Of a stretch of DNA of 53,953 bases, positions 20,624 through 34,409 are shown one piece after another. Made by a program: the position numbers and the translations under genes. Each line of letters begins with the position of its first letter. Within the stretch, counting starts at the first letter, position 1. The notes under the pieces are model-generated. The model was given only the letters and a program-made list of their open reading frames with translations, did no database searches and was not told the origin of the DNA. Source of the DNA: Thermoplasmata archaeon (GTDB lineage: Archaea; Thermoplasmatota; Thermoplasmata; Lutacidiplasmatales; UBA184); contig JBARHO010000069.1 in assembly GCA_049799275.1 (NCBI GenBank), positions 1-53,953 on the forward strand, given 5' to 3'.

Positions 20624-21118
20624 ATGCCTAGGACGTCCAGCCTCGACGCCCTCGATCGGGCGATATTGGAGGAGCTCAACATCGACGCTCGTCGGAGCCA
20701 CCGGGAGATCGCGCACCGGTGCGAGGTGTCCCCGACCACCGTCAGTGCGCGGATCGCCCGTCTGGAGCGGGACGGCATCATCCGCGGCTATGTCCCGTTG
20801 CTCGACGACGAGCTGTTGGGATGGGATCTGGTGGCGACGATCGGGATCCGCATCTCCAAAGGAAAACTGCGAGAGGTCGAGGAGCGTCTCGCACGGGACG
20901 CCCGCGCGTACGCGATCTACGATGTCACCGGCGACTTCGATGCCCTGCTCATCGGTCGGTTCCGCGATCGACGGGACCTGGACCGCTTCGTGAAGCAGGT
21001 CCTCCAGGACCCCCACGTGGAACGGACGAACACCCAGGTCGTCCTGAACCGGGTGAAAGAGGACCGCCGCGTTCCGCTCACCCTACGCCCGGTGGACCGG
21101 GCGCAAGGCAACGACTAA
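20624..21118 (+). CDS. Lrp/AsnC family transcriptional regulator
   Basis: An N-terminal HTH (LDALDRAILEELNIDARRSHREIAHRCEVSPTTVSARIARLERDGII) plus a RAM/ACT-like C-terminal half (YDVTGDFDALL). Confidence 0.9.
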   Translation: MPRTSSLDALDRAILEELNIDARRSHREIAHRCEVSPTTVSARIARLERDGIIRGYVPLLDDELLGWDLVATIGIRISKGKLREVEERLARDARAYAIYDVTGDFDALLIGRFRDRRDLDRFVKQVLQDPHVERTNTQVVLNRVKEDRRVPLTLRPVDRAQGND

Positions 21119-21153
21119 AATAACCGGGTCCGTAGGTCGGCCGGGGAGCCTTC

Positions 21154-21975
21154 ATGGATTGGGGAATGCAGAACCGTCTGTCCCGGATCCTCTCGCCGCG
21201 ATCGGGGCGGACCGTCATGCTCGCGGTCGATCATGGATATTTCATGGGTCCGACGCGCCACCTCGAGGACGCTCGGGCCACGATCACCCCGCTCATCCCG
21301 CACGCCGATGCCCTTGCGCTCACGCGGGGCATCCTCCGGAACTGCGTCGCACCAGAGGCCCAGGTGCCTATCGTCCTTCGGGTCTCGGGAGGGGTCACGG
21401 TCCTCAAGGAGGATCTCAGCGACGAGGCCGTCACCACCTCGATCGACGAGGCGCTGCGGCTCAACGTCAGTGCGGTCGCCATGAGCGTGTTCGTCGGCGC
21501 TCCCCACGAGCACCAGAGCCTGGTCGCCCTGGGCGAGCTCGTGAACGGAGCGGAGCGGGCGGGCATGCCCGTGATGGCGATCACCGCCGTGGGAAAGGAG
21601 CTCGACAAGCGGGATGCGCGGTACCTGGGCCTGGCCTGCCGGGTCTCCGCGGAGCTGGGCGCCCACATGGTGAAGACCTACTATTGTGAGGGATTCGAGA
21701 AGGTCGTCGAGGCCTGCCCGGTCCCGATCGTGGTGGCGGGCGGCCCCAAGCTGGACGATGACCGGGCGGCGCTCACCCTGGCCTTCGATGCGATGGCCGC
21801 CGGGGCCAAGGGGATCGACATGGGGCGGAACATCTGGCAGTCCGATCACCCGGTCGCGATGCTGAAGGCCCTTCGGGCGATCGTGCACGACGGGGCGGAC
21901 GTGCGGGAGGCCCTGACCATCGTGTCCGAGACCAAGCCCCGTAGCGCCCGCGCCACGCGCGTGGTGCCGGCCTGA
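21154..21975 (+). CDS. class I aldolase of the DhnA/LsrF/ADH-synthase family
   Basis: LAVDHGYFMGP, the Schiff-base region HMVKTYY, VVAGGPK and IDMGRNIWQ fit the family. The specific substrate is unknown. Confidence 0.75.
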   Translation: MDWGMQNRLSRILSPRSGRTVMLAVDHGYFMGPTRHLEDARATITPLIPHADALALTRGILRNCVAPEAQVPIVLRVSGGVTVLKEDLSDEAVTTSIDEALRLNVSAVAMSVFVGAPHEHQSLVALGELVNGAERAGMPVMAITAVGKELDKRDARYLGLACRVSAELGAHMVKTYYCEGFEKVVEACPVPIVVAGGPKLDDDRAALTLAFDAMAAGAKGIDMGRNIWQSDHPVAMLKALRAIVHDGADVREALTIVSETKPRSARATRVVPA

Positions 21976-25428: not shown

Positions 25429-25513
25429 GCGGGGATCGCCCAGCTTGGTCAAAGGCGCCAGATTCAGGGTCTGGTCTCGTAGGAGTTCGTGGGTTCAAAT
25501 CCCTCTCCCCGCA
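25429..25513 (+). tRNA. tRNA-Leu (anticodon CAG), no encoded CCA
   Basis: Hand-folded. Acceptor stem GCGGGGA/TCCCCGC; perfect anticodon stem CCAGA/TCTGG with loop TT-CAG-GG; long variable arm (CTC-GTAG-GAG); T-arm GTGGG-TTCAAAT-CCCTC with one U-U mismatch; discriminator A. Confidence 0.85.
25492..25513 (+). repeat. direct repeat copy 1 (3' end of tRNA-Leu; attL-like)
   Basis: GGTTCAAATCCCTCTCCCCGCA is identical to 29682..29703. Confidence 0.9.
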
Positions 25514-25558
25514 TTTCCAATACTTGAACCCATGCAGGGTTCGAATCCCAGACCCGCA
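25514..25558 (+). repeat. junction module: hairpin plus degenerate third copy of the tRNA 3' end
   Basis: TTTCCAATACTTGAACCC-ATGCA-GGGTTCGAATCCCAGACCCGCA. By my alignment, 25538..25558 matches the 22-nt repeat at 17 positions with one gap. The layout parallels 29656..29703. Confidence 0.5.
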
Positions 25559-25681: not shown

Positions 25682-25909
25682 ATGGCCGCCGTGAATGAGC
25701 GCATGACATCCATCACCCTTCCGCACAACGTGCGCAATCGATTGCGCGACTACCAAGTCGGAGGGAAGAGTGCGGCTCAAGCCATTGAGGACTTGATGGA
25801 TGAGATTCCCCCCGATTACTTTCGCCGTGACGTCCAACGCGCGTTGCTCCTTCCTCGGGAGTCGTTGGAGAGCTTCCGTAGGAGACATCGACTCTCGCAG
25901 TCACGCTGA
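25682..25909 (+). CDS. ribbon-helix-helix antitoxin (RelB/CopG-like)
   Basis: MTSITLPHNVRNRLRDY fits an RHH beta-strand plus helix. Its stop codon is immediately followed by the toxin ATG (TGAATG). An alternative start is at 25703. Confidence 0.65.
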   Translation: MAAVNERMTSITLPHNVRNRLRDYQVGGKSAAQAIEDLMDEIPPDYFRRDVQRALLLPRESLESFRRRHRLSQSR

Positions 25910-26272
25910 ATGTTCACCCTGGAATTCGCCGACCCAATTGCTGGTCAGAGCTTTGAGCGGCTCCCCCGTCGAGTGCAGAGTAGGTTCAATGAGGCGTTCG
26001 AGCACCTCGCGCAGCATCCGCGGTCCGCTTCCCCCGAACTGGATGTTCACCAGCTTTCGGGATACCAGAATGTCTGGACCTTGCGAATGCCCCCTTGGCG
26101 AGGGATCTACGCCATCGACGGAGATGACGTCGTCCTGATCGTCTTCGGACATCGGACGAGTGTGTACCCACTGCTGCACAGCCTTCTGCCTCCCGAGGGC
26201 CGGTACTTCACTCGGCCACCAAAGCGGGGGAGAGCGGTCAGAACACGCAGAACCCCGGAGCGTAAGCCATGA
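25910..26272 (+). CDS. RelE/ParE-family toxin
   Basis: LSGYQNVWTLRMPPWRGIYAIDGDDVVLIVFGHRTSVY matches the RelE/ParE C-terminal core (W-x-LR...YR-x-IY...I...HR). It has a basic C-terminal extension. Confidence 0.8.
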   Translation: MFTLEFADPIAGQSFERLPRRVQSRFNEAFEHLAQHPRSASPELDVHQLSGYQNVWTLRMPPWRGIYAIDGDDVVLIVFGHRTSVYPLLHSLLPPEGRYFTRPPKRGRAVRTRRTPERKP

Positions 26273-26379: not shown

Positions 26380-27051
26380 TCAGGTAGGATCGCGAACGCC
26401 CCTCCCCGATTCCGGACTCATGGCGGGTGGTATCGGTGTCCGTTCGTCTACGACCCTCGCTGCCGGAGCGAGCAAGTAGCTTCCGTAACCAATCAGCCAG
26501 ATGAGCAGTGGGTACACGATGGCCCGTTCCCAACCCCCGCCGCCTAAAGTGGCCTGCACCAGCGGGGTGGAATATGCGCCGAACTCGATCCCCACGCTTG
26601 CGAGGCTCCTGACCCCGAGCGCGAGGGCGAAGTAGCGGAACGCCGATTCGATCCGTCGGTAGGACAGGATGGCCGCGAGCGGTCCGGGTACGAAGGCGAG
26701 CACGGCACCGACCGAGTGGACCACCACGTTGACGTTTTCCGGCGAGAGCACCGCGAGGAGCAGCCCCGCGCCGGGCAGAATGTTGAGGATCATTTCCCCG
26801 CGACTCCCCGTGCCCCGATAGAGGTAGTAGGCCCCGGCGATCCACGCGAGACCCGCAAGGAACAGTAGCGGCTCTCCCGCCCAGGCTGTGCGGGTGCCGA
26901 GCGCAAGTAGGTCGCTGATGGTGTTGCGGTGAACGCTGTAGCTGGAAGCGAGGGACTCCAGGACCGTGACCACGAGGAGGAATGTGACTCCCGCGAGGGT
27001 CAACAAGATCCCGGAGCGGTGGAGGTCTGGGGCGTCCGGTGGCGCCTGCAT
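26380..27051 (-). CDS. multi-pass membrane protein (DUF998-like)
   Basis: About 6 TM helices. Its start overlaps the upstream stop by 1 nt (TAATG). The family call is from memory only. Confidence 0.6.
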   Translation of the reverse strand: MQAPPDAPDLHRSGILLTLAGVTFLLVVTVLESLASSYSVHRNTISDLLALGTRTAWAGEPLLFLAGLAWIAGAYYLYRGTGSRGEMILNILPGAGLLLAVLSPENVNVVVHSVGAVLAFVPGPLAAILSYRRIESAFRYFALALGVRSLASVGIEFGAYSTPLVQATLGGGGWERAIVYPLLIWLIGYGSYLLAPAARVVDERTPIPPAMSPESGRGVRDPT

Positions 27052-27470
27052 TACTGCACCCCGGCCCGGCGTTCGCTCGAGCCGCCTTCCTGGAGGTCCT
27101 GTAGCCGGGCGCGCATCTCCTCTCGTGAGATTTCGCCGCGGGCGTAGCGGGCACGGACGATCCCTTCGGGGGGCGCCCGCCAGACTCTATCGGGCCATGC
27201 CCGCTGGCCCCGACCGCGCCAAGGCCGCAGAACAAAGAATACCAGCACCCAGACCAGTCCAAGACCGAGGGGGATGAGGAACCCGTACGGAGAGGCCGGG
27301 CCCGAGTACACTGGAGCGGCGATGATCCCAGCCCATGAGAGGTAGGTGAACACCGCCGCGAGCGCAAGGAGGGTTCCGATGACGGCGATGGGAATAATCC
27401 AGAACCGAGACGGCATCCGGCACTCGATCGGTCCAGTGTCGACCCCGGTGAGACCGGACATCGCGGTCAT
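27051..27470 (-). CDS. membrane protein with C-terminal SHOCT domain
   Basis: Two TM helices followed by IVRARYARGEISREEMRARLQDL (SHOCT consensus). I chose the start that forms an ATGA overlap with the SDR stop. Confidence 0.65.
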   Translation of the reverse strand: MTAMSGLTGVDTGPIECRMPSRFWIIPIAVIGTLLALAAVFTYLSWAGIIAAPVYSGPASPYGFLIPLGLGLVWVLVFFVLRPWRGRGQRAWPDRVWRAPPEGIVRARYARGEISREEMRARLQDLQEGGSSERRAGVQ

Positions 27471-28261
27471 CCCCACCCCGCCATCCGTCCACCGTCGACG
27501 AGGAGCGTCACGCCGGTCACAAAGCGTGCCGCGTCCGAGCCGAGCCACACCACGGCCTCCGCGACCTCCGCCCCCATGCCGAGACGCCGCATCGGAACTG
27601 CCTGTCGGGCCTGCTCCTGGTAGGTCTCCGGAAGCCCGCGCATTCGATGGGTCTCGATAGGCCCTGGGGCGACCGCGTTCACACGCACATTCCGCTGCGC
27701 GTAATCGATTGCCGCAGCCTTGCTAAGGCCGATCACCGCATGTTTGGCGGCCGTGTACGGACCCCCGCCGCGGAACGCCGAGATCCCGGCGGTCGATGAC
27801 ATATTGACAATCGCCCCGCCGCCGGTGGCAAGCAGGAGCGGTATCTCCTGCTGCATGGCACGGAAGGTTCCCCGAACGGTCACGCGGAAGACGAGGTCGA
27901 AGGTGGCAGGGGGCACGTCTGCGAGATCGGTGGGCGGGGCGCCCTCCCCGGAGTTGTTGAACGCGACGTCGAGCCGACCGAAACGGGTCCGAATCTCCGT
28001 TCCGAGTCGGTCGATCGATGCATCGTCCGTGAGGTCCAGCGGCACCACCAGCGCCTCTTGGCCGAGTTCCTGAATCTCCTGGGCGACGGTAGTGAGCCCC
28101 TCGACATCCCGGGAGGCGAGCACGACCGAGGCGCCTCGGCGGGCGAAGAGCCGGGCCGTGTCAGCACCAATTCCTTTGCTCGCGCCTACGACTAGGGCGA
28201 CCTTCGACTTGAACTGCCTCTCTTCGCCCGGTCCGGAAGACGGCGATGCATCGGTCATCAA
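27467..28261 (-). CDS. SDR-family oxidoreductase
   Basis: VVGASKGIGADTA, NNSG, YTAAKHAVIGLSK and PGPIETHR. Confidence 0.9.
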   Translation of the reverse strand: MMTDASPSSGPGEERQFKSKVALVVGASKGIGADTARLFARRGASVVLASRDVEGLTTVAQEIQELGQEALVVPLDLTDDASIDRLGTEIRTRFGRLDVAFNNSGEGAPPTDLADVPPATFDLVFRVTVRGTFRAMQQEIPLLLATGGGAIVNMSSTAGISAFRGGGPYTAAKHAVIGLSKAAAIDYAQRNVRVNAVAPGPIETHRMRGLPETYQEQARQAVPMRRLGMGAEVAEAVVWLGSDAARFVTGVTLLVDGGRMAGWG

Positions 28262-28333
28262 TATTAGATATACTGTAAACCTAAATAAGGCTAATGCCTT
28301 GATTCAAGTCACCCGACGTCTGCGGGAACGCGA

Positions 28334-29038
28334 ATGAGCCCTCGAAGGTACGACCTCGGACGAAGACGCGGTGCCTCGGAAGCGACCCGGACCCGGATTC
28401 TCGAAGCGGCACGCGAGCTGCTTGGCGGGAAGAGCGGTCCGGAAGAGTACTCCATGGATGCGGTCGCAGCTCAAGCGGGAGTCTCGCGCATGACCGTCTA
28501 TAACCAGTTCCGCTCCGAGGTCGGCCTACTGGTTGCACTCGCAGACCTGCTCGCAGCTCGGGGGGGTATGGCTCGGATGCCCGAGGTGTTCCTCGAGAGA
28601 CGGCCGGCCGAGGCGATACGGAAGTTCGTCGCCGTGTTCGTAGGTTTCTGGGCCTCCGATAGGGTGTTGTTGCGGCGCCTGCGCGCGCTCGGTGTGCTGC
28701 GCCCCGGACTCTACAGGTCCCTGCGTGAGCGGGACTCGTGGAGGCGTGAGGGAGCAAAGACACTCATCCACCGGATTCGATCGGCAACGCGTCTCCAGAT
28801 GGACGAGGACGCCACGGTCGATCTCTTGACGAGCTTGACGAGCTTCGAGACGTTCGACTCGATCTCCGCCGACGACAAGAGCCCCGATGAGGTCGCCCTC
28901 TTCCTAACGAGCGCGATTCTCCTCTTCTTCGGACTGCGCGGGGACCGGCGCTCTTCCAACCCGGTCCGTCAGCTCCCGAAGGCGGTCGCTCCATCCCACT
29001 CGCCCAGAGCAGGCCCCCGGCGGCAGGCCGGACCATGA
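28334..29038 (+). CDS. TetR/AcrR family transcriptional regulator
   Basis: TRTRILEAARELL...YSMDAVAAQAGVSRMTVYNQFRSE is a TetR HTH. It is divergent from the SDR across a 72-nt AT-rich gap (28262..28333) that contains AAGGCTAATGCCTT. Confidence 0.9.
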   Translation: MSPRRYDLGRRRGASEATRTRILEAARELLGGKSGPEEYSMDAVAAQAGVSRMTVYNQFRSEVGLLVALADLLAARGGMARMPEVFLERRPAEAIRKFVAVFVGFWASDRVLLRRLRALGVLRPGLYRSLRERDSWRREGAKTLIHRIRSATRLQMDEDATVDLLTSLTSFETFDSISADDKSPDEVALFLTSAILLFFGLRGDRRSSNPVRQLPKAVAPSHSPRAGPRRQAGP

Positions 29039-29505
29039 TCCGAGTCGAAGTTCAGCGGGAGCTGACGGCCGCTGCGGACGGCGTCTGGATGATTGTCGCG
29101 GCCACGGATGATGAGCCCCGGTACTGGCCGGGGCTATCGGAGCTGCGCACGGTGCGACGCGAGGGGCTCGTTAGCGAACGAGAAGTTTCCGTGCGGCGCG
29201 GTCCGCTCGGGAAGATGAGGAGCCGCCAGCGGATCGAACTGCGGCCGGAGCGGACGACCGTACTACTGACGATGACCGGAGGGCCGATGCACGGAACGCG
29301 GTCCATTGTCATCTCCTCCCTCGGGCCAACGCGAACGAGCATTGACGTCGTTTGGGAGGTCCGCATCGAGGGGATGCCGAGATTTGCCGAACGGTTCGTT
29401 GAAACGAGCCTCCGAGGTACCACACGAATAGCGCTCGACCGGATCGGAGAACTGGCCTTGAAACGCCTTCCCTCGATGGCTCCGCGGAATCTTGTCCCCT
29501 CATGA
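29035..29505 (+). CDS. SRPBCC (polyketide cyclase/dehydrase-like) protein
   Basis: ATGA overlap with the TetR stop. Size and beta-rich pattern (VWMIVAATDDEPRYWPGL...IDVVWEVRIEG) fit the START/SRPBCC fold. Confidence 0.7.
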   Translation: MIRVEVQRELTAAADGVWMIVAATDDEPRYWPGLSELRTVRREGLVSEREVSVRRGPLGKMRSRQRIELRPERTTVLLTMTGGPMHGTRSIVISSLGPTRTSIDVVWEVRIEGMPRFAERFVETSLRGTTRIALDRIGELALKRLPSMAPRNLVPS

Positions 29506-29665
29506 GCCGACGAGCCAATCGTCTGCGGATCCCTTCGGGACTGCGGGGGCGACCGCCGCGGCGGAGTCGCCGAGCGCATCACTGTCCAGATCTAACCTGA
29601 GGGCTTCGGACACACTCCTAGAGTTCCAGGTCAGACCTTGGACGGTGGAGAGCACTTTCCATAAT

Positions 29666-29690
29666 ATTTGAACCGCCGGGCGGTTCAAAT
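29666..29690. repeat. perfect 25-bp palindrome overlapping the right-hand direct repeat
   Basis: ATTTGAACCGCC-G-GGCGGTTCAAAT. The right arm is the T-arm/T-loop-like start of the repeat, and the left arm is its exact inverted complement. Confidence 0.9.
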
Positions 29691-29703
29691 CCCTCTCCCC
29701 GCA
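29682..29703 (+). repeat. direct repeat copy 2 (orphan tRNA-Leu 3' end; attR-like)
   Basis: GGTTCAAATCCCTCTCCCCGCA is identical to 25492..25513. No GCGGGGA acceptor 5' strand or anticodon arm lies upstream, so it is not a tRNA gene. Confidence 0.9.
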
Positions 29704-29949
29704 CGGGACCCATGCTACCGAAGATCTTGCGCGTACTCGAAACCACGGGCGGATCAGATCCCAACTTCCACCCGAACTCGCGTCCCCGTATCGAACGGCC
29801 CGCGTCGAACCTATTCGACCTTGTACCAGATGGGGCGGGGCGTCCGTCCCTGGCCGGGTACACGCGCGCCTACTGCACTTGGCCCATGGCGACGTGGATC
29901 GTCGCCTCGTCCCGGTCGTGACGCTGACCGGCCCTGGTCGATGAACGGG

Positions 29950-32369: not shown

Positions 32370-34409
32370 TCATTCCGGAGCGCGAGGGCCAAGATCGGTA
32401 GAAGAGCTGGGAGGAACGAGCTGGTCATCAGATCGTCGAGAGCGCGATCCGCTCGGCGCAAGCAGGCCCATGTCTCGCTGAAGTTCGATGAATCGGGGAT
32501 CCGCCCTCAGGAAATCGAACATCGGATCGATATTGATCTTGGCCAGAGTGCTGGCCTTGAGCTCAAAGGCCCTCCGGAGCCAAGCCATCGTCGCCGTCTT
32601 GTCCTGGAGGCCGACGAAGGCGATGGCGACATTGAACGGCGAGATGTATCGACCGGAAGAACCGTGCTCGAGCTCGGAGATGAGCTGTCGCGCTTCGTCC
32701 GTCCTCCCGACGATCCCGTACGCGTACGCGAGGTACGCCTTGGCCAGCAGCCCGCCGTGTGAGAGGGCGAGCGCCTTTTCCATCGCCTCCACGCCCTTCT
32801 CGTACATGGTCTTCTGGAGGTAGGTCTTGCCGAGCTTGATGAAGGCCGGTACGAATCCCGGGTCGATCTCGAGGAGCTTGTGGCACTCCTCGATGGCCGA
32901 ATCCGTATCGTTCGCGCTCCGATAGATCTCCGCCGCACAGTCGTGCACGCCCACGGAGTACGGGTCCAGTTCCTCGGCCCTCCTGATCTCGGCCACGGCC
33001 TGGGGCAGGCGACCTCGGAGGGCCAGATGGACGGCGTACGAGTTGCACAGCACCGACCAATTGGGATTGAGCTCGATCGCGCGCTTGAATCCCTTCTCCG
33101 CGGCCTCCCAGTCCCACAGATAGTTCTGCAACAGCTGGGCCCCGGTCGCATGGGCCTCGGGAAGTTGATCGTCGAGCGCCAAGGCCTTCGCCACGAGCGG
33201 TTGGATCTGGTGATACGCCTGCGTCGCATCGGCACAGCCCTCATCGCAGAGACCGATGTGGCAATCCGCGAGACCGACGTAGGCGAGCGCATAGTTCGGG
33301 TCGACCCGGATGGCCTCCTCAAAGAGCTGGATCGCGGTCCGCAGCTCCGCCTCGGTGCCCTTGTGCCAGTGATATCGCCCCTTGAGGACCAGATCGTGCG
33401 CATCCCTATTGGTGGTCGGACGCTTTTCGATCTTCTCCTTTTCCTCGGGAAGGAGGGTGACCTTGAGCGCCTCCAGGACCCGCTGGGCGATATCGCTCTG
33501 GATCGCGAACACGTCCAAGAGGTCCCGGTCGTAGGTCTGCGACCAAAGGTGATCATCGCTCTCCGTATCGATGAGCTGGACGGAGATCCGGACCCGGTTA
33601 CCGGCCTTGCGAACGCTCCCTTCCAGGATCGATCCGACGTTCAATTCCCTCCCGATCTCCGGGACGCTCTTGACGGTATCCTTGTACTTGAGCGCCGAGG
33701 TCCTCGAGATGACCCGAAGGCCGCTCACCATGCAGATGCTGGAGATCAGTTCCTCGGTGAGCCCCTCCGAGAAGTACTCATCGGACCCGCCGGACAGATT
33801 GGCCATGGGAAGGATGGCCACTCGGCGCTTGTCGCGGCCCCGGCCGGTAGGGACCTTGGGGAGCGACGACCCGGCGGACCCCTTCTCCCAGGGGGTCACG
33901 ATCACCTTGAAGACCTCCATGGGCAGTTCGACGTTCTTGAGCTGAACTCGTCCCAGACTGACCACGGGGCTCTCCAGTTTGTTGCGGATGAGATGGTACA
34001 CCTGCTCCGTAACGCACACCCCACCGGGTTCGGCCAACGGCTCGATGCGGGAGGCGACGTTGACCGCGTCCCCGTGGATGTCGCCCTCCGTATGGAGCAC
34101 GTCACCCGTATGGATCCCGATCCGGACCTGGATCGGCCGGTTGCTCGTCGAGGCCACATTCCTCCCCCGGATCGCGCTCTGGATCGCGACCGCACACCTC
34201 ACGGCGTCGAGAGCGCTGGCGAACTCGACCAGAAAGCCGTCCCCGATGGTCTTGACCTCGGTCCCGCCGTATCGGCCGAACGTGCTCCTCAGGATCCTCC
34301 TCTGCTCGGAGAGGAGCTGCATCGCGAACGATTCGTTCTCCTGGGCCAGCGCGGTGTAGCCGACGAGGTCGGTGAACATGATGGCGACGAGGCGTCGGGA
34401 TGCGGCCAC
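32370..34409 (-). CDS. class III adenylate/guanylate cyclase with TolB-N-like and TPR domains
   Basis: VAIMFTDLVGYT, VKTIGDGFLVEF, IGIHTGDV and GDAVNVASRIE form the cyclase core. RVAILPMANLSGG...FSEGLTEELI follows, then about 7 TPR repeats. Confidence 0.9.
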   Translation of the reverse strand: MAASRRLVAIMFTDLVGYTALAQENESFAMQLLSEQRRILRSTFGRYGGTEVKTIGDGFLVEFASALDAVRCAVAIQSAIRGRNVASTSNRPIQVRIGIHTGDVLHTEGDIHGDAVNVASRIEPLAEPGGVCVTEQVYHLIRNKLESPVVSLGRVQLKNVELPMEVFKVIVTPWEKGSAGSSLPKVPTGRGRDKRRVAILPMANLSGGSDEYFSEGLTEELISSICMVSGLRVISRTSALKYKDTVKSVPEIGRELNVGSILEGSVRKAGNRVRISVQLIDTESDDHLWSQTYDRDLLDVFAIQSDIAQRVLEALKVTLLPEEKEKIEKRPTTNRDAHDLVLKGRYHWHKGTEAELRTAIQLFEEAIRVDPNYALAYVGLADCHIGLCDEGCADATQAYHQIQPLVAKALALDDQLPEAHATGAQLLQNYLWDWEAAEKGFKRAIELNPNWSVLCNSYAVHLALRGRLPQAVAEIRRAEELDPYSVGVHDCAAEIYRSANDTDSAIEECHKLLEIDPGFVPAFIKLGKTYLQKTMYEKGVEAMEKALALSHGGLLAKAYLAYAYGIVGRTDEARQLISELEHGSSGRYISPFNVAIAFVGLQDKTATMAWLRRAFELKASTLAKINIDPMFDFLRADPRFIELQRDMGLLAPSGSRSRRSDDQLVPPSSSTDLGPRAPE

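What the first reader, a model, noticed from the sequence alone, without database searches (positions are those of the whole stretch)
29656..29703. Homologous palindromic junction modules that mimic the tRNA T-arm at both islet ends
Directly 3' of the tRNA (25514..25558) lies TTTCCAATACTTGAACCC-ATGCA-GGGTTCGAATCCCAGACCCGCA. At the right end (29656..29703) lies TTTCCATAATATTTGAACCGCC-G-GGCGGTTCAAATCCCTCTCCCCGCA. Both have the same order of parts. A TTTCCA..AATA..TTGAACC arm comes first, then its inverted complement, which is also the T-stem/T-loop part of a tRNA 3' end, then an acceptor-like CCCGCA. The right copy is a perfect 25-bp palindrome (29666..29690). The left copy is a degenerate third copy of the tRNA 3' end (17 of 22 positions with one gap, by my alignment). 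So the locus holds three copies of the tRNA 3' end, two of them preceded by a related arm. This fits successive integration and deletion events at one att site. It also fits a recombination site whose inverted arms are built on the T-arm. I do not know this arrangement from described archaeal integrative elements.
Basis: seen in the sequence. Interest (0 to 1): 0.6.

Follow-up and report, generated by a model that had tools for sequence, protein, structure and literature searches.

The report
T-arm palindromes at tRNA-Leu integration junctions
The two look-alike palindromic modules are real and belong to a lineage-wide family of attachment-site junctions, where integrase-borne islands and integrase-less gene cassettes pile up behind a leucine tRNA gene of soil Thermoplasmata; the inverted arm is probably a recombinase docking site, but that is not proven.

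Summary
tRNA-Leu(CAG) lies at 25429-25513, and its last 22 nt recur exactly at 29682-29703. The right module holds a perfect 25-nt palindrome (29666-29690). The left module (25514-25558) is significantly similar to it (34/48 columns, z=6). A fourth, decayed module lies at about 29731-29774.

The modules are not ordinary tRNA trailers. In this genome they occur only here. Across 150 species of the genus (Ca. Lutacidiplasma-type Thermoplasmata), about 90 matches in 46 species share one geometry: inverted arm TYGAACC, a 7-nt gap, then GGTTCRAAT. A reversed-pattern control gave 0 matches. They sit at the borders of small, unrelated cargo units behind tRNA genes.

The left module is the conserved left end of a toxin-antitoxin cassette also found in another species. 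The right module matches the right junction of a 21-kb defence island elsewhere.

A divergent tyrosine integrase of about 470 aa abuts this same tRNA in three other species. It carries a T-arm-like site that resembles the palindrome's left arm in inverted orientation. This genome has no such integrase.

The two arms do not co-vary, which argues for a double-stranded protein-binding site and against a hairpin.

The scan reported the same kind of junction earlier on other genomes.

The parts
25429..25513 (+). tRNA-Leu(CAG), intact; the integration target (attL side)
   Evidence: ARAGORN. Rfam RF00005 44.5 bits. The match including the gene is 100% identical in several species of the genus.
25492..25513 (+). 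Core repeat copy 1: two T-stem bases, the T-loop, the T-stem 3' strand and the acceptor 3' strand
   Evidence: Exact 22-nt direct repeat with 29682-29703. Present once or twice in 127 of 150 genus genomes.
25514..25558 (+). Left module (the cassette's P' arm). It consists of a 10-nt trailer-like piece (25514-25523), inverted arm TTGAACC (25524-25530), a 7-nt gap (25531-25537), direct arm GGTTCGAAT (25538-25546) and a decayed acceptor-like tail (to 25558).
   Evidence: Homologous to the module that precedes the same toxin-antitoxin pair in G030; the window lacks 30 nt of the spacer. The inverted arm is a 9/9 complement of the tRNA's own T-arm (last fold).
25682..26272 (+). RHH-type antitoxin (75 aa) and ParE toxin (120 aa): the first cargo, which forms one cassette with the left module
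   Evidence: Pfam ParE_toxin 2e-07. 81% and 83% amino-acid identity to the pair behind tRNA-Leu in G030. Homology with G030 fades about 30 nt after the ParE stop.
26380..29505 (.). Remaining cargo: DUF998 membrane protein (-), short-chain dehydrogenase (-), TetR regulator (+), SRPBCC/polyketide-cyclase-like protein (+). No recombinase.
   Evidence: Pfam. No integrase remnant by tblastn at E<=1. The SDR-TetR pair is also found about 3.6 kb beyond the last module of the G061 array.
29656..29703 (+). Right module (attR). It consists of a P-arm flank (29656-29665), inverted arm ATTTGAACC (29666-29674), a 7-nt gap GCCGGGC (29675-29681), direct arm GGTTCAAAT (29682-29690) and the rest of core copy 2 (to 29703).
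   Evidence: The same 36-38 nt recur in G061, G147, G172, G142 and others.
29704..29774 (+). Roughly 30-nt spacer plus a decayed fourth module (arm-gap-arm at about 29731-29774). This is the older junction, displaced by the islet.
   Evidence: 80% identity over 121 nt with G147, where this module is intact. Weak profile hit, E 5.2. No significant fold (z -0.2).

Best explanation
The modules are attachment-site junctions of a lineage-specific family of DNA elements that insert by site-specific recombination into the 3' end of tRNA-Leu(CAG), and of at least one other tRNA, in Ca. Lutacidiplasma-type Thermoplasmata.

Proposed layout of the element-borne site (attP), left to right:
1. an inverted T-loop-like arm;
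2. a 7-nt gap;
3. the direct T-arm plus the tRNA 3' end (the core, where strand exchange must occur);
4. after 8-45 nt, a second T-arm-like module.

After insertion, the tRNA keeps an intact 3' end followed by the second module; this is the left module here. The displaced old 3' end is then preceded by the inverted arm, which creates the palindrome; this is the right module here.

The 4.19-kb islet is a composite of at least two integrase-less units: a toxin-antitoxin cassette and a metabolic/regulator block. It was stacked in front of an older junction.

Inferred, not shown:
- Such units are moved in trans by a divergent tyrosine integrase of about 470 aa, which is found abutting the same tRNA in other species.
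- The repeated T-arm-like half-sites, with their fixed 7-nt spacing, are docking sites on double-stranded DNA for that recombinase or a partner protein.
For: - The exact 22-nt core repeat brackets the islet, and the tRNA is intact.
- Genus-wide pattern search: about 90 matches in 46 of 150 species, against 0 for the reversed control.
- With the gap left free from 0 to 30 nt there were 134 matches. I tallied them by hand. 76 have a 7-nt gap, 11 have 6 nt and 3 have 8 nt. 31 have a 2-nt gap, and I take these to be a sequence internal to tRNA-Arg(CCG), which I checked in one case only. 13 are scattered over other lengths.
- 27 different gap sequences share this length.
- The modules border unrelated cargo: toxin-antitoxin pairs, PKD/beta-propeller proteins, cyclase-TPR, MBL hydrolase, methylase, MFS transporter, RibD_C.
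- Presence/absence at exact borders: in G061 a 4.2-kb unit sits between the tRNA and the 717-bp toxin-antitoxin unit that abuts the tRNA in G142 and G172. It is flanked by a 35-bp repeat starting at GGTTC.
- The left module plus toxin-antitoxin pair is shared with G030.
- The right module, spacer and fourth module are shared with G147, where they close a 21-kb low-GC defence island.
- The integrase family lies directly 3' of tRNA genes in 83 of 150 species. It lies directly behind tRNA-Leu(CAG) in G064, G147 and G158.
- G147 has only two exact cores: the tRNA with the integrase, and the right-type module.
- The integrase-side arm reads GGCGGTTCAAATACC..., while the bottom strand of the right module's left arm reads GGCGGTTCAAATAT....
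Against: - No integrase or remnant exists in this 93%-complete assembly.
- No relative with the empty site for exactly this islet was found.
- The link between the two G147 contigs is circumstantial.
- Integrase-bearing elements of the same family at tRNA-Gln (18-nt repeat) and tRNA-Val (candidate 10-nt repeat) show no clear inverted T-arm in their P arm. The palindrome is therefore not a general requirement of the family.
- The similarity between the integrase-side site and the left arm is short (about 14-20 nt).
- No binding or recombination has been shown.
- The constant 7-nt gap could partly reflect common descent of the copies.
Confidence: 0.6

Rival explanations
1. The inverted arms have no function. 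The modules are decaying scars of repeated integrations that all descend from one ancestral attP, and the palindrome is a historical accident carried along.
For: The left module and the fourth module are visibly decayed. The tails after the direct arm diverge freely between copies. Integrase-bearing relatives at tRNA-Gln and tRNA-Val lack the inverted arm.
Against: The arms and the 7-nt spacing are kept while gap sequence, tails and cargo vary (27 gap variants). The architecture is seen at two or more different tRNA targets. Near-perfect copies occur in many species.
Confidence: 0.2
2. The palindromes act as folded single-stranded hairpins or cruciforms, like integron attC sites or the CTX phage attP. 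The array would then be an integron-like platform.
For: The 25-nt palindrome is perfect and folds stably (-11.4 kcal/mol). The arrays consist of integrase-less cassettes rich in toxin-antitoxin pairs.
Against: The variable T-loop position does not co-vary between arms. The counts are T/A 32, T/G 29, C/A 21 and C/G 13, close to independence. Complementarity of the inner gap is only 0.51 against 0.41 for shuffled partners. The stems are 9-12 bp, enough for one binding site and not the two boxes of an attC. Cassette genes face both ways. No IntI-type gene lies beside the arrays.
Confidence: 0.1
3. The cassettes exploit the chromosomal XerA recombinase in an IMEX-like manner. The arm-gap-arm module would be a dif-like site.
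For: In most species the top PF00589 match scores about E 1e-37 to 1e-41 (140 of 150 species have a match); I take this to be XerA. It is the only canonical tyrosine recombinase detected in several module-bearing genomes. The module is close in size to dif, which has 11-nt arms and a 6-nt spacer (PMC8371274).
Against: Insertion is at a tRNA, not at dif. The identity between junctions lies in the tRNA core, outside the gap of the palindrome. Only 46 of 150 species have modules.
Confidence: 0.05
4. The modules are subterminal hairpins of an IS200/IS605-like (HUH) element, or ordinary tRNA processing or termination signals.
For: Similar hairpins lie in the same orientation at both ends. T-rich TTTCC follows the tRNA.
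Against: No Y1 transposase (PF01797) was found in five genomes, including this one. The ends carry a direct repeat of the target, which such elements do not make. The motif is absent after the other 27 tRNAs and is present or absent between species at the same tRNA.
Confidence: 0.03

Closest known systems
tRNA-gene attachment sites of tyrosine-integrase elements, T-loop and 3'-end sublocations (Williams 2002; archaeal overview in PMC8371274)
   Same: A direct repeat of the tRNA 3' part brackets the insert and the tRNA is regenerated. The identity block starts at the T-arm. An integrase gene lies directly 3' of the tRNA in autonomous members.
   Different: An inverted copy of the T-stem 5' strand plus T-loop lies 7 nt upstream of the core in the P arm, and a second T-arm-like module lies in the P' arm. 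I found no description of this in the review or in the other papers retrieved. Most units carry no integrase.
Cis-mobilizable elements (CIMEs) and tandem accretion at tRNA or other att sites in bacteria (ICESt-type islands). This comparison rests on my own knowledge and was not checked in a paper here.
   Same: Integrase-less units bounded by att repeats are stacked at one site, and related autonomous elements use the same site.
   Different: The host is an archaeon, the units are much smaller (0.7-4 kb) and the junction is palindromic. Mobilisation in trans is only inferred.
Integrons and clusters of attC sites lacking an integrase (CALINs), including archaeal ones (Ghaly et al. 2022, PMC9668308)
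   Same: Arrays of small cassettes separated by imperfect palindromes, an abundance of toxin-antitoxin cargo, and a recombinase often absent from the locus.
   Different: The sites derive from a tRNA 3' end and the array is anchored on a tRNA gene, not on attI. Stems are short with no sign of selection for pairing. Genes face both ways. No IntI-type integrase is present. The paper does not mention tRNA.
dif sites of XerA/XerCD and elements that exploit them
   Same: An inverted-repeat site of about 25-28 bp with a short central gap.
   Different: The geometry is 9-7-9 (or 12-1-12), not 11-6-11. The location is a tRNA. The crossover is inferred to lie outside the gap.

Membership tests
tRNA-targeting tyrosine-integrase integrative element (attL/attR logic) | A direct repeat of the tRNA 3' part brackets the inserted DNA | tested here: met
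   Exact 22-nt repeat at 25492-25513 and 29682-29703.
tRNA-targeting tyrosine-integrase integrative element (attL/attR logic) | An intact tRNA gene is regenerated at one junction | tested here: met
   ARAGORN and Rfam both call a full tRNA-Leu(CAG). The match including the gene is 100% identical in other species.
tRNA-targeting tyrosine-integrase integrative element (attL/attR logic) | An integrase gene lies inside the element | tested here: not met
   The islet has no recombinase domain. The assembly has no remnant. A cognate-type integrase sits at the same tRNA in G064, G147 and G158.
tRNA-targeting tyrosine-integrase integrative element (attL/attR logic) | Presence/absence polymorphism exactly at the repeats | tested here: inconclusive
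   Shown for a sister unit: a 4.2-kb unit in G061 against G142/G172, with a 35-bp repeat. No empty site was found for this particular islet.
tRNA-targeting tyrosine-integrase integrative element (attL/attR logic) | An excised circular form or an empty site in sequencing reads | not testable with these tools
Integron / CALIN | attC sites that fold as single strands, with paired R and L boxes and pairing kept by selection | tested here: not met
   Stems are 9-12 bp only. The arms do not co-vary. The attC covariance model itself was not available.
Integron / CALIN | An IntI-type integrase next to attI, or at least typical promoterless cassettes all in one orientation | tested here: not met
No tyrosine recombinase lies beside the arrays.
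IS200/IS605-type element | A Y1 HUH transposase (TnpA), and ends without target duplication | tested here: not met
   PF01797 is absent in five genomes. A 22-nt direct repeat is present.
Casposon | Terminal inverted repeats flanked by a target-site duplication | tested here: not met
   The two end modules are in direct, not inverted, orientation. Cas1 was not searched for.

The most novel reading that the evidence does not exclude
Soil Thermoplasmata of this lineage run a tRNA-anchored gene-capture system. Small integrase-less cassettes carry a dedicated symmetric site built from two T-arm-like half-sites 7 bp apart. A large, so far uncharacterised family of about 470-aa tyrosine integrases inserts, stacks and reshuffles them in trans. 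Functionally this would be an archaeal counterpart of integrons, built from tRNA-type att sites.
Probability: 0.3. Interest if true: 0.7.

Novelty: new variant of a known kind. Interest (0 to 1): 0.5.

Why it matters
- It gives a concrete, testable model of how uncultured soil archaea collect toxin-antitoxin, defence and metabolic genes behind one tRNA gene.
- It links integrase-less cassettes to a candidate integrase family that standard Pfam thresholds miss (20-22 bits).
- It defines a compact, symmetric site that could serve as a recognition code for that family. This would help both in annotating archaeal islands and, later, as a genetic tool.
- If the inverted arm proves dispensable, the result is still a clean map of a recurrent integration hotspot.

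Tried and rejected
- Canonical integrases near the arrays: none. This covers PF00589 in 5 and then 150 genomes, and tblastn with the genome's own two recombinases.
- SSV-type integrase (PF16795): absent.
- Serine recombinases (PF00239): two truncated resolvase ORFs lie about 170 nt upstream of modules in G007. Full-length resolvases in G061 and G172 have no modules nearby, so I dropped this link.
- Y1 transposase: absent.
- Exact 36-mer of the right module in viral contigs and metagenome contigs: no hit. A degenerate version found only Thermoplasmata MAGs and 5 metagenome contigs, none with an integrase in the stretch held.
- Coding reading of the conserved 38-45-nt spacer: the bottom strand reads ...HFFDRFIYKFPAGRGI with its stop in the T-loop, but it is never part of a long gene. 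This remains unexplained.
- Arm covariation as a test for a hairpin: negative.
- Homology of the right junction with the region downstream of the G061 array: not convincing.
- Right junctions (attR) of integrase-bearing elements at tRNA-Val and tRNA-Gln: found or suspected, but without a clear inverted arm.
- Rfam on the islet: only the tRNA.

Full report
**1. Observation**

The window is contig C69 of a 2.23-Mb, 66.7% G+C archaeal MAG. ARAGORN and Rfam place one tRNA gene in the window, tRNA-Leu(CAG), at 25429-25513. Its last 22 nt recur exactly at 29682-29703.

The right module contains a perfect 25-nt palindrome at 29666-29690. As single-stranded DNA it folds at -11.4 kcal/mol (z -4.4). The left module folds at -5.9 kcal/mol (z -2.5).

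A global alignment of the two modules has 34 identical columns of 48. None of 5000 dinucleotide shuffles reaches this score (z 6.0). The part upstream of the direct T-arm is also far above chance.

In this genome the arm-gap-arm pattern beside a tRNA-like tail occurs only at these two places. None of the other 27 detected tRNAs is followed by it. A profile built from relatives' modules adds one weak, decayed copy at 29731-29774.

**2. The islet**

Between the repeats lie the following genes:
- an RHH-type antitoxin and a ParE toxin;
- a DUF998 membrane protein;
- a short-chain dehydrogenase;
- a TetR regulator;
- an SRPBCC protein.

There is no recombinase in the islet and no integrase remnant anywhere in the assembly. 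G+C content dips to 0.59-0.62 at the left end, against about 0.69 upstream.

**3. The modules are a lineage-wide family**

The same tRNA-Leu(CAG) is present in relatives, and the sequence behind it is hypervariable.

A pattern for inverted arm, 6-8-nt gap and direct T-arm gave about 90 matches in 46 of 150 species of the genus. The reversed control gave none.

With the gap left free from 0 to 30 nt there were 134 matches, which I tallied by hand:

| Gap length | Matches |
|---|---|
| 7 nt | 76 |
| 6 nt | 11 |
| 8 nt | 3 |
| 2 nt | 31 |
| other lengths, scattered | 13 |

I take the 2-nt class to be a sequence internal to tRNA-Arg(CCG); this was checked in one case only.

Record titles place the lineage in Thermoplasmata, including Ca. 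Lutacidiplasma silvani (order described in PMC9287336).

The modules often come in pairs or series 0.7-4 kb apart, behind tRNA-Leu(CAG) and behind at least one other tRNA. They separate unrelated cargo:
- toxin-antitoxin pairs;
- PKD/beta-propeller proteins of 1090-1190 aa;
- a cyclase-TPR protein;
- an MBL hydrolase;
- a methylase;
- an MFS transporter;
- a RibD_C protein;
- a DDE transposase.

**4. Evidence that the borders are recombination joints**

In G061 a 4.2-kb unit lies between the tRNA and a 717-bp toxin-antitoxin unit. In G142 and G172 that 717-bp unit abuts the tRNA directly. The extra unit is flanked by a 35-bp repeat that starts at GGTTC of the T-arm and runs 13 nt past the tRNA end.

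The tRNA side has no inverted arm. Exchange must therefore occur inside the core, not in the gap of the palindrome. The same follows in the window, where the sequences left of GGTTC differ between the two junctions.

**5. What each window module is**

*Left module.* The left module, the leader and the toxin-antitoxin pair are homologous to the stretch behind tRNA-Leu in G030. Identity is about 80% at nucleotide level and 81% and 83% for the two proteins. The window lacks 30 nt of the 45-nt spacer seen in G030 and in many other species. Homology ends about 30 nt after the ParE stop. The left module is therefore the conserved left end (P' arm) of a cassette, and the islet is composite.

*Right module.* The right module, the following spacer and the decayed fourth module are 80% identical over 121 nt to G147, where the fourth module is intact. 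In G147 this junction closes a 21-kb low-G+C island. That island carries an SMC-like ATPase, methylases, Mrr, a UvrD helicase with a PD-(D/E)XK nuclease, and MTaX1-HNH.

The arrangement 'core, 38-45-nt spacer, module' is the common state directly behind the tRNA in several species. The window's fourth module is therefore the older junction, pushed downstream by the islet.

**6. A candidate recombinase in trans**

Following a resolvase fragment in G007 led to two tandem elements at tRNA-Gln. Each begins with a 423-aa protein that scores only 20-22 bits on PF00589, below the curated cut-off.

This family occurs in 83 of 150 species, often in several copies. It typically lies 70-130 nt behind a tRNA gene (Gln, Val, Lys, Ala, Glu) and reads away from it.

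I crossed its coordinates with all exact copies of the tRNA-Leu core. In three species (G064, G147, G158) a 78-100% inter-related member lies directly behind tRNA-Leu(CAG).

In those three, the tRNA end is followed after 7-8 nt by a direct T-arm-like site, GG(C/G)GGTTCAAATACCACAAATAG. The bottom strand of the right module's left arm reads GGCGGTTCAAATAT... in the window, G147, G149 and three further records (one GTDB MAG and two metagenome contigs).

G147 holds only two exact cores: the tRNA with the integrase on one contig, and the right-type module at the end of the island on another. This suggests, but does not prove, that the palindromic junction is the right end of an integrase-borne island, and that T-arm-like motifs are what the protein recognises.

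**7. Hairpin or double-stranded site?**

Across 95 module contexts the variable T-loop position shows no co-variation between arms. The counts are T/A 32, T/G 29, C/A 21 and C/G 13. The inner gap is only slightly more self-complementary than shuffled partners (0.51 against 0.41).

Each arm is kept as a T-loop-like word, and the spacing is kept, but pairing is not. That fits two half-sites for a protein dimer on duplex DNA better than a folded strand. It could also partly reflect common descent.

**8. Limits**

- Integrase-bearing elements of the family at tRNA-Gln and tRNA-Val show cores of 18 nt and a candidate 10 nt, with no clear inverted arm. The palindrome is therefore a feature of the tRNA-Leu-type (and one other) sites, not of the whole family.
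- The conserved 38-45-nt spacer has a protein-like pattern on the bottom strand but is never part of a long gene. I cannot explain this.

**9. Comparison with known systems**

The logic is that of tRNA-targeting tyrosine-integrase elements with T-arm or 3'-end cores (PMC8371274), and of tandem accretion of integrase-less derivatives. The array resembles integrons and CALINs (PMC9668308), but it fails their defining features.

I found no description of an inverted T-arm in the P arm in the review or in the SNJ2 paper.

Earlier notes of this scan describe the same kind of palindromic junction and a 717-bp toxin-antitoxin cassette in other genomes of this group. I re-derived both independently here. 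I add the integrase family at the same tRNA, the spacing statistics, the lack of covariation, and the composite origin of this islet.

**10. Verdict**

The feature is real and is a new variant of a known kind. The junction role is well supported (about 0.85). The docking-site role of the inverted arm is plausible (about 0.5).

Noticed in passing
window 25476-25513; loci L021, L031-L033: The T-stem of tRNA-Leu(CAG) has a U50-U64 mismatch in this genome and in most of the genus. One species has G50 (a wobble pair). Three more distant genomes, one of them in the same genus, have A50, a normal pair with U64.
   Followed up: partly
L104/L105 (G007:C2:1697000-1730000): Two tandem integrase-bearing elements lie at tRNA-Gln(UUG) and share a 2.7-kb direct repeat (88% identity). 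Each carries a truncated resolvase ORF and a T-arm palindrome. The shared backbone ends exactly at another T-arm-like site, after which the cargo differs.
   Followed up: partly
window 29704-29740 and homologous spacers (e.g. L089, L075, L093): The 38-45-nt spacer after the tRNA core is conserved across species. On the bottom strand it reads like a short peptide (...HFFDRFIYKFPAGRGI) whose stop codon lies in the T-loop. It is never part of a long ORF.
   Followed up: partly
window 32370-33965 (-) and L092:4671-6590: The cyclase-TPR protein downstream of the islet is 36% identical to a cyclase-TPR gene that forms a single cassette between two modules behind tRNA-Leu in G167. The window's array may therefore extend to about 34.4 kb, although no module was detected there.
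   Followed up: partly
G000 contigs C78:9187-9215 and C211:3437-3463: These are tRNA-like 3' ends that ARAGORN did not call, probably from intron-containing tRNA genes. The C78 tail (…CCCCCCCCCGACA) nearly matches (one C longer) the tail of a module placed behind tRNA-Leu in G007.
   Followed up: no
genus-wide, e.g. L133:1426-1499: In many species, I infer, tRNA-Arg(CCG) itself contains a near-palindrome (TCGAACC, 2 nt, GGTTCGAATC). It spans the variable region and the T-arm. It accounts for the 31 matches with a 2-nt gap.
   Followed up: partly
window 20663-21918 vs L084:1-1255: The Lrp-type regulator and DeoC-family aldolase abut tRNA-Leu in relatives. Here they lie about 3.5 kb upstream of it, with two SDR genes and a 584-aa minus-strand ORF in between.
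   Followed up: no
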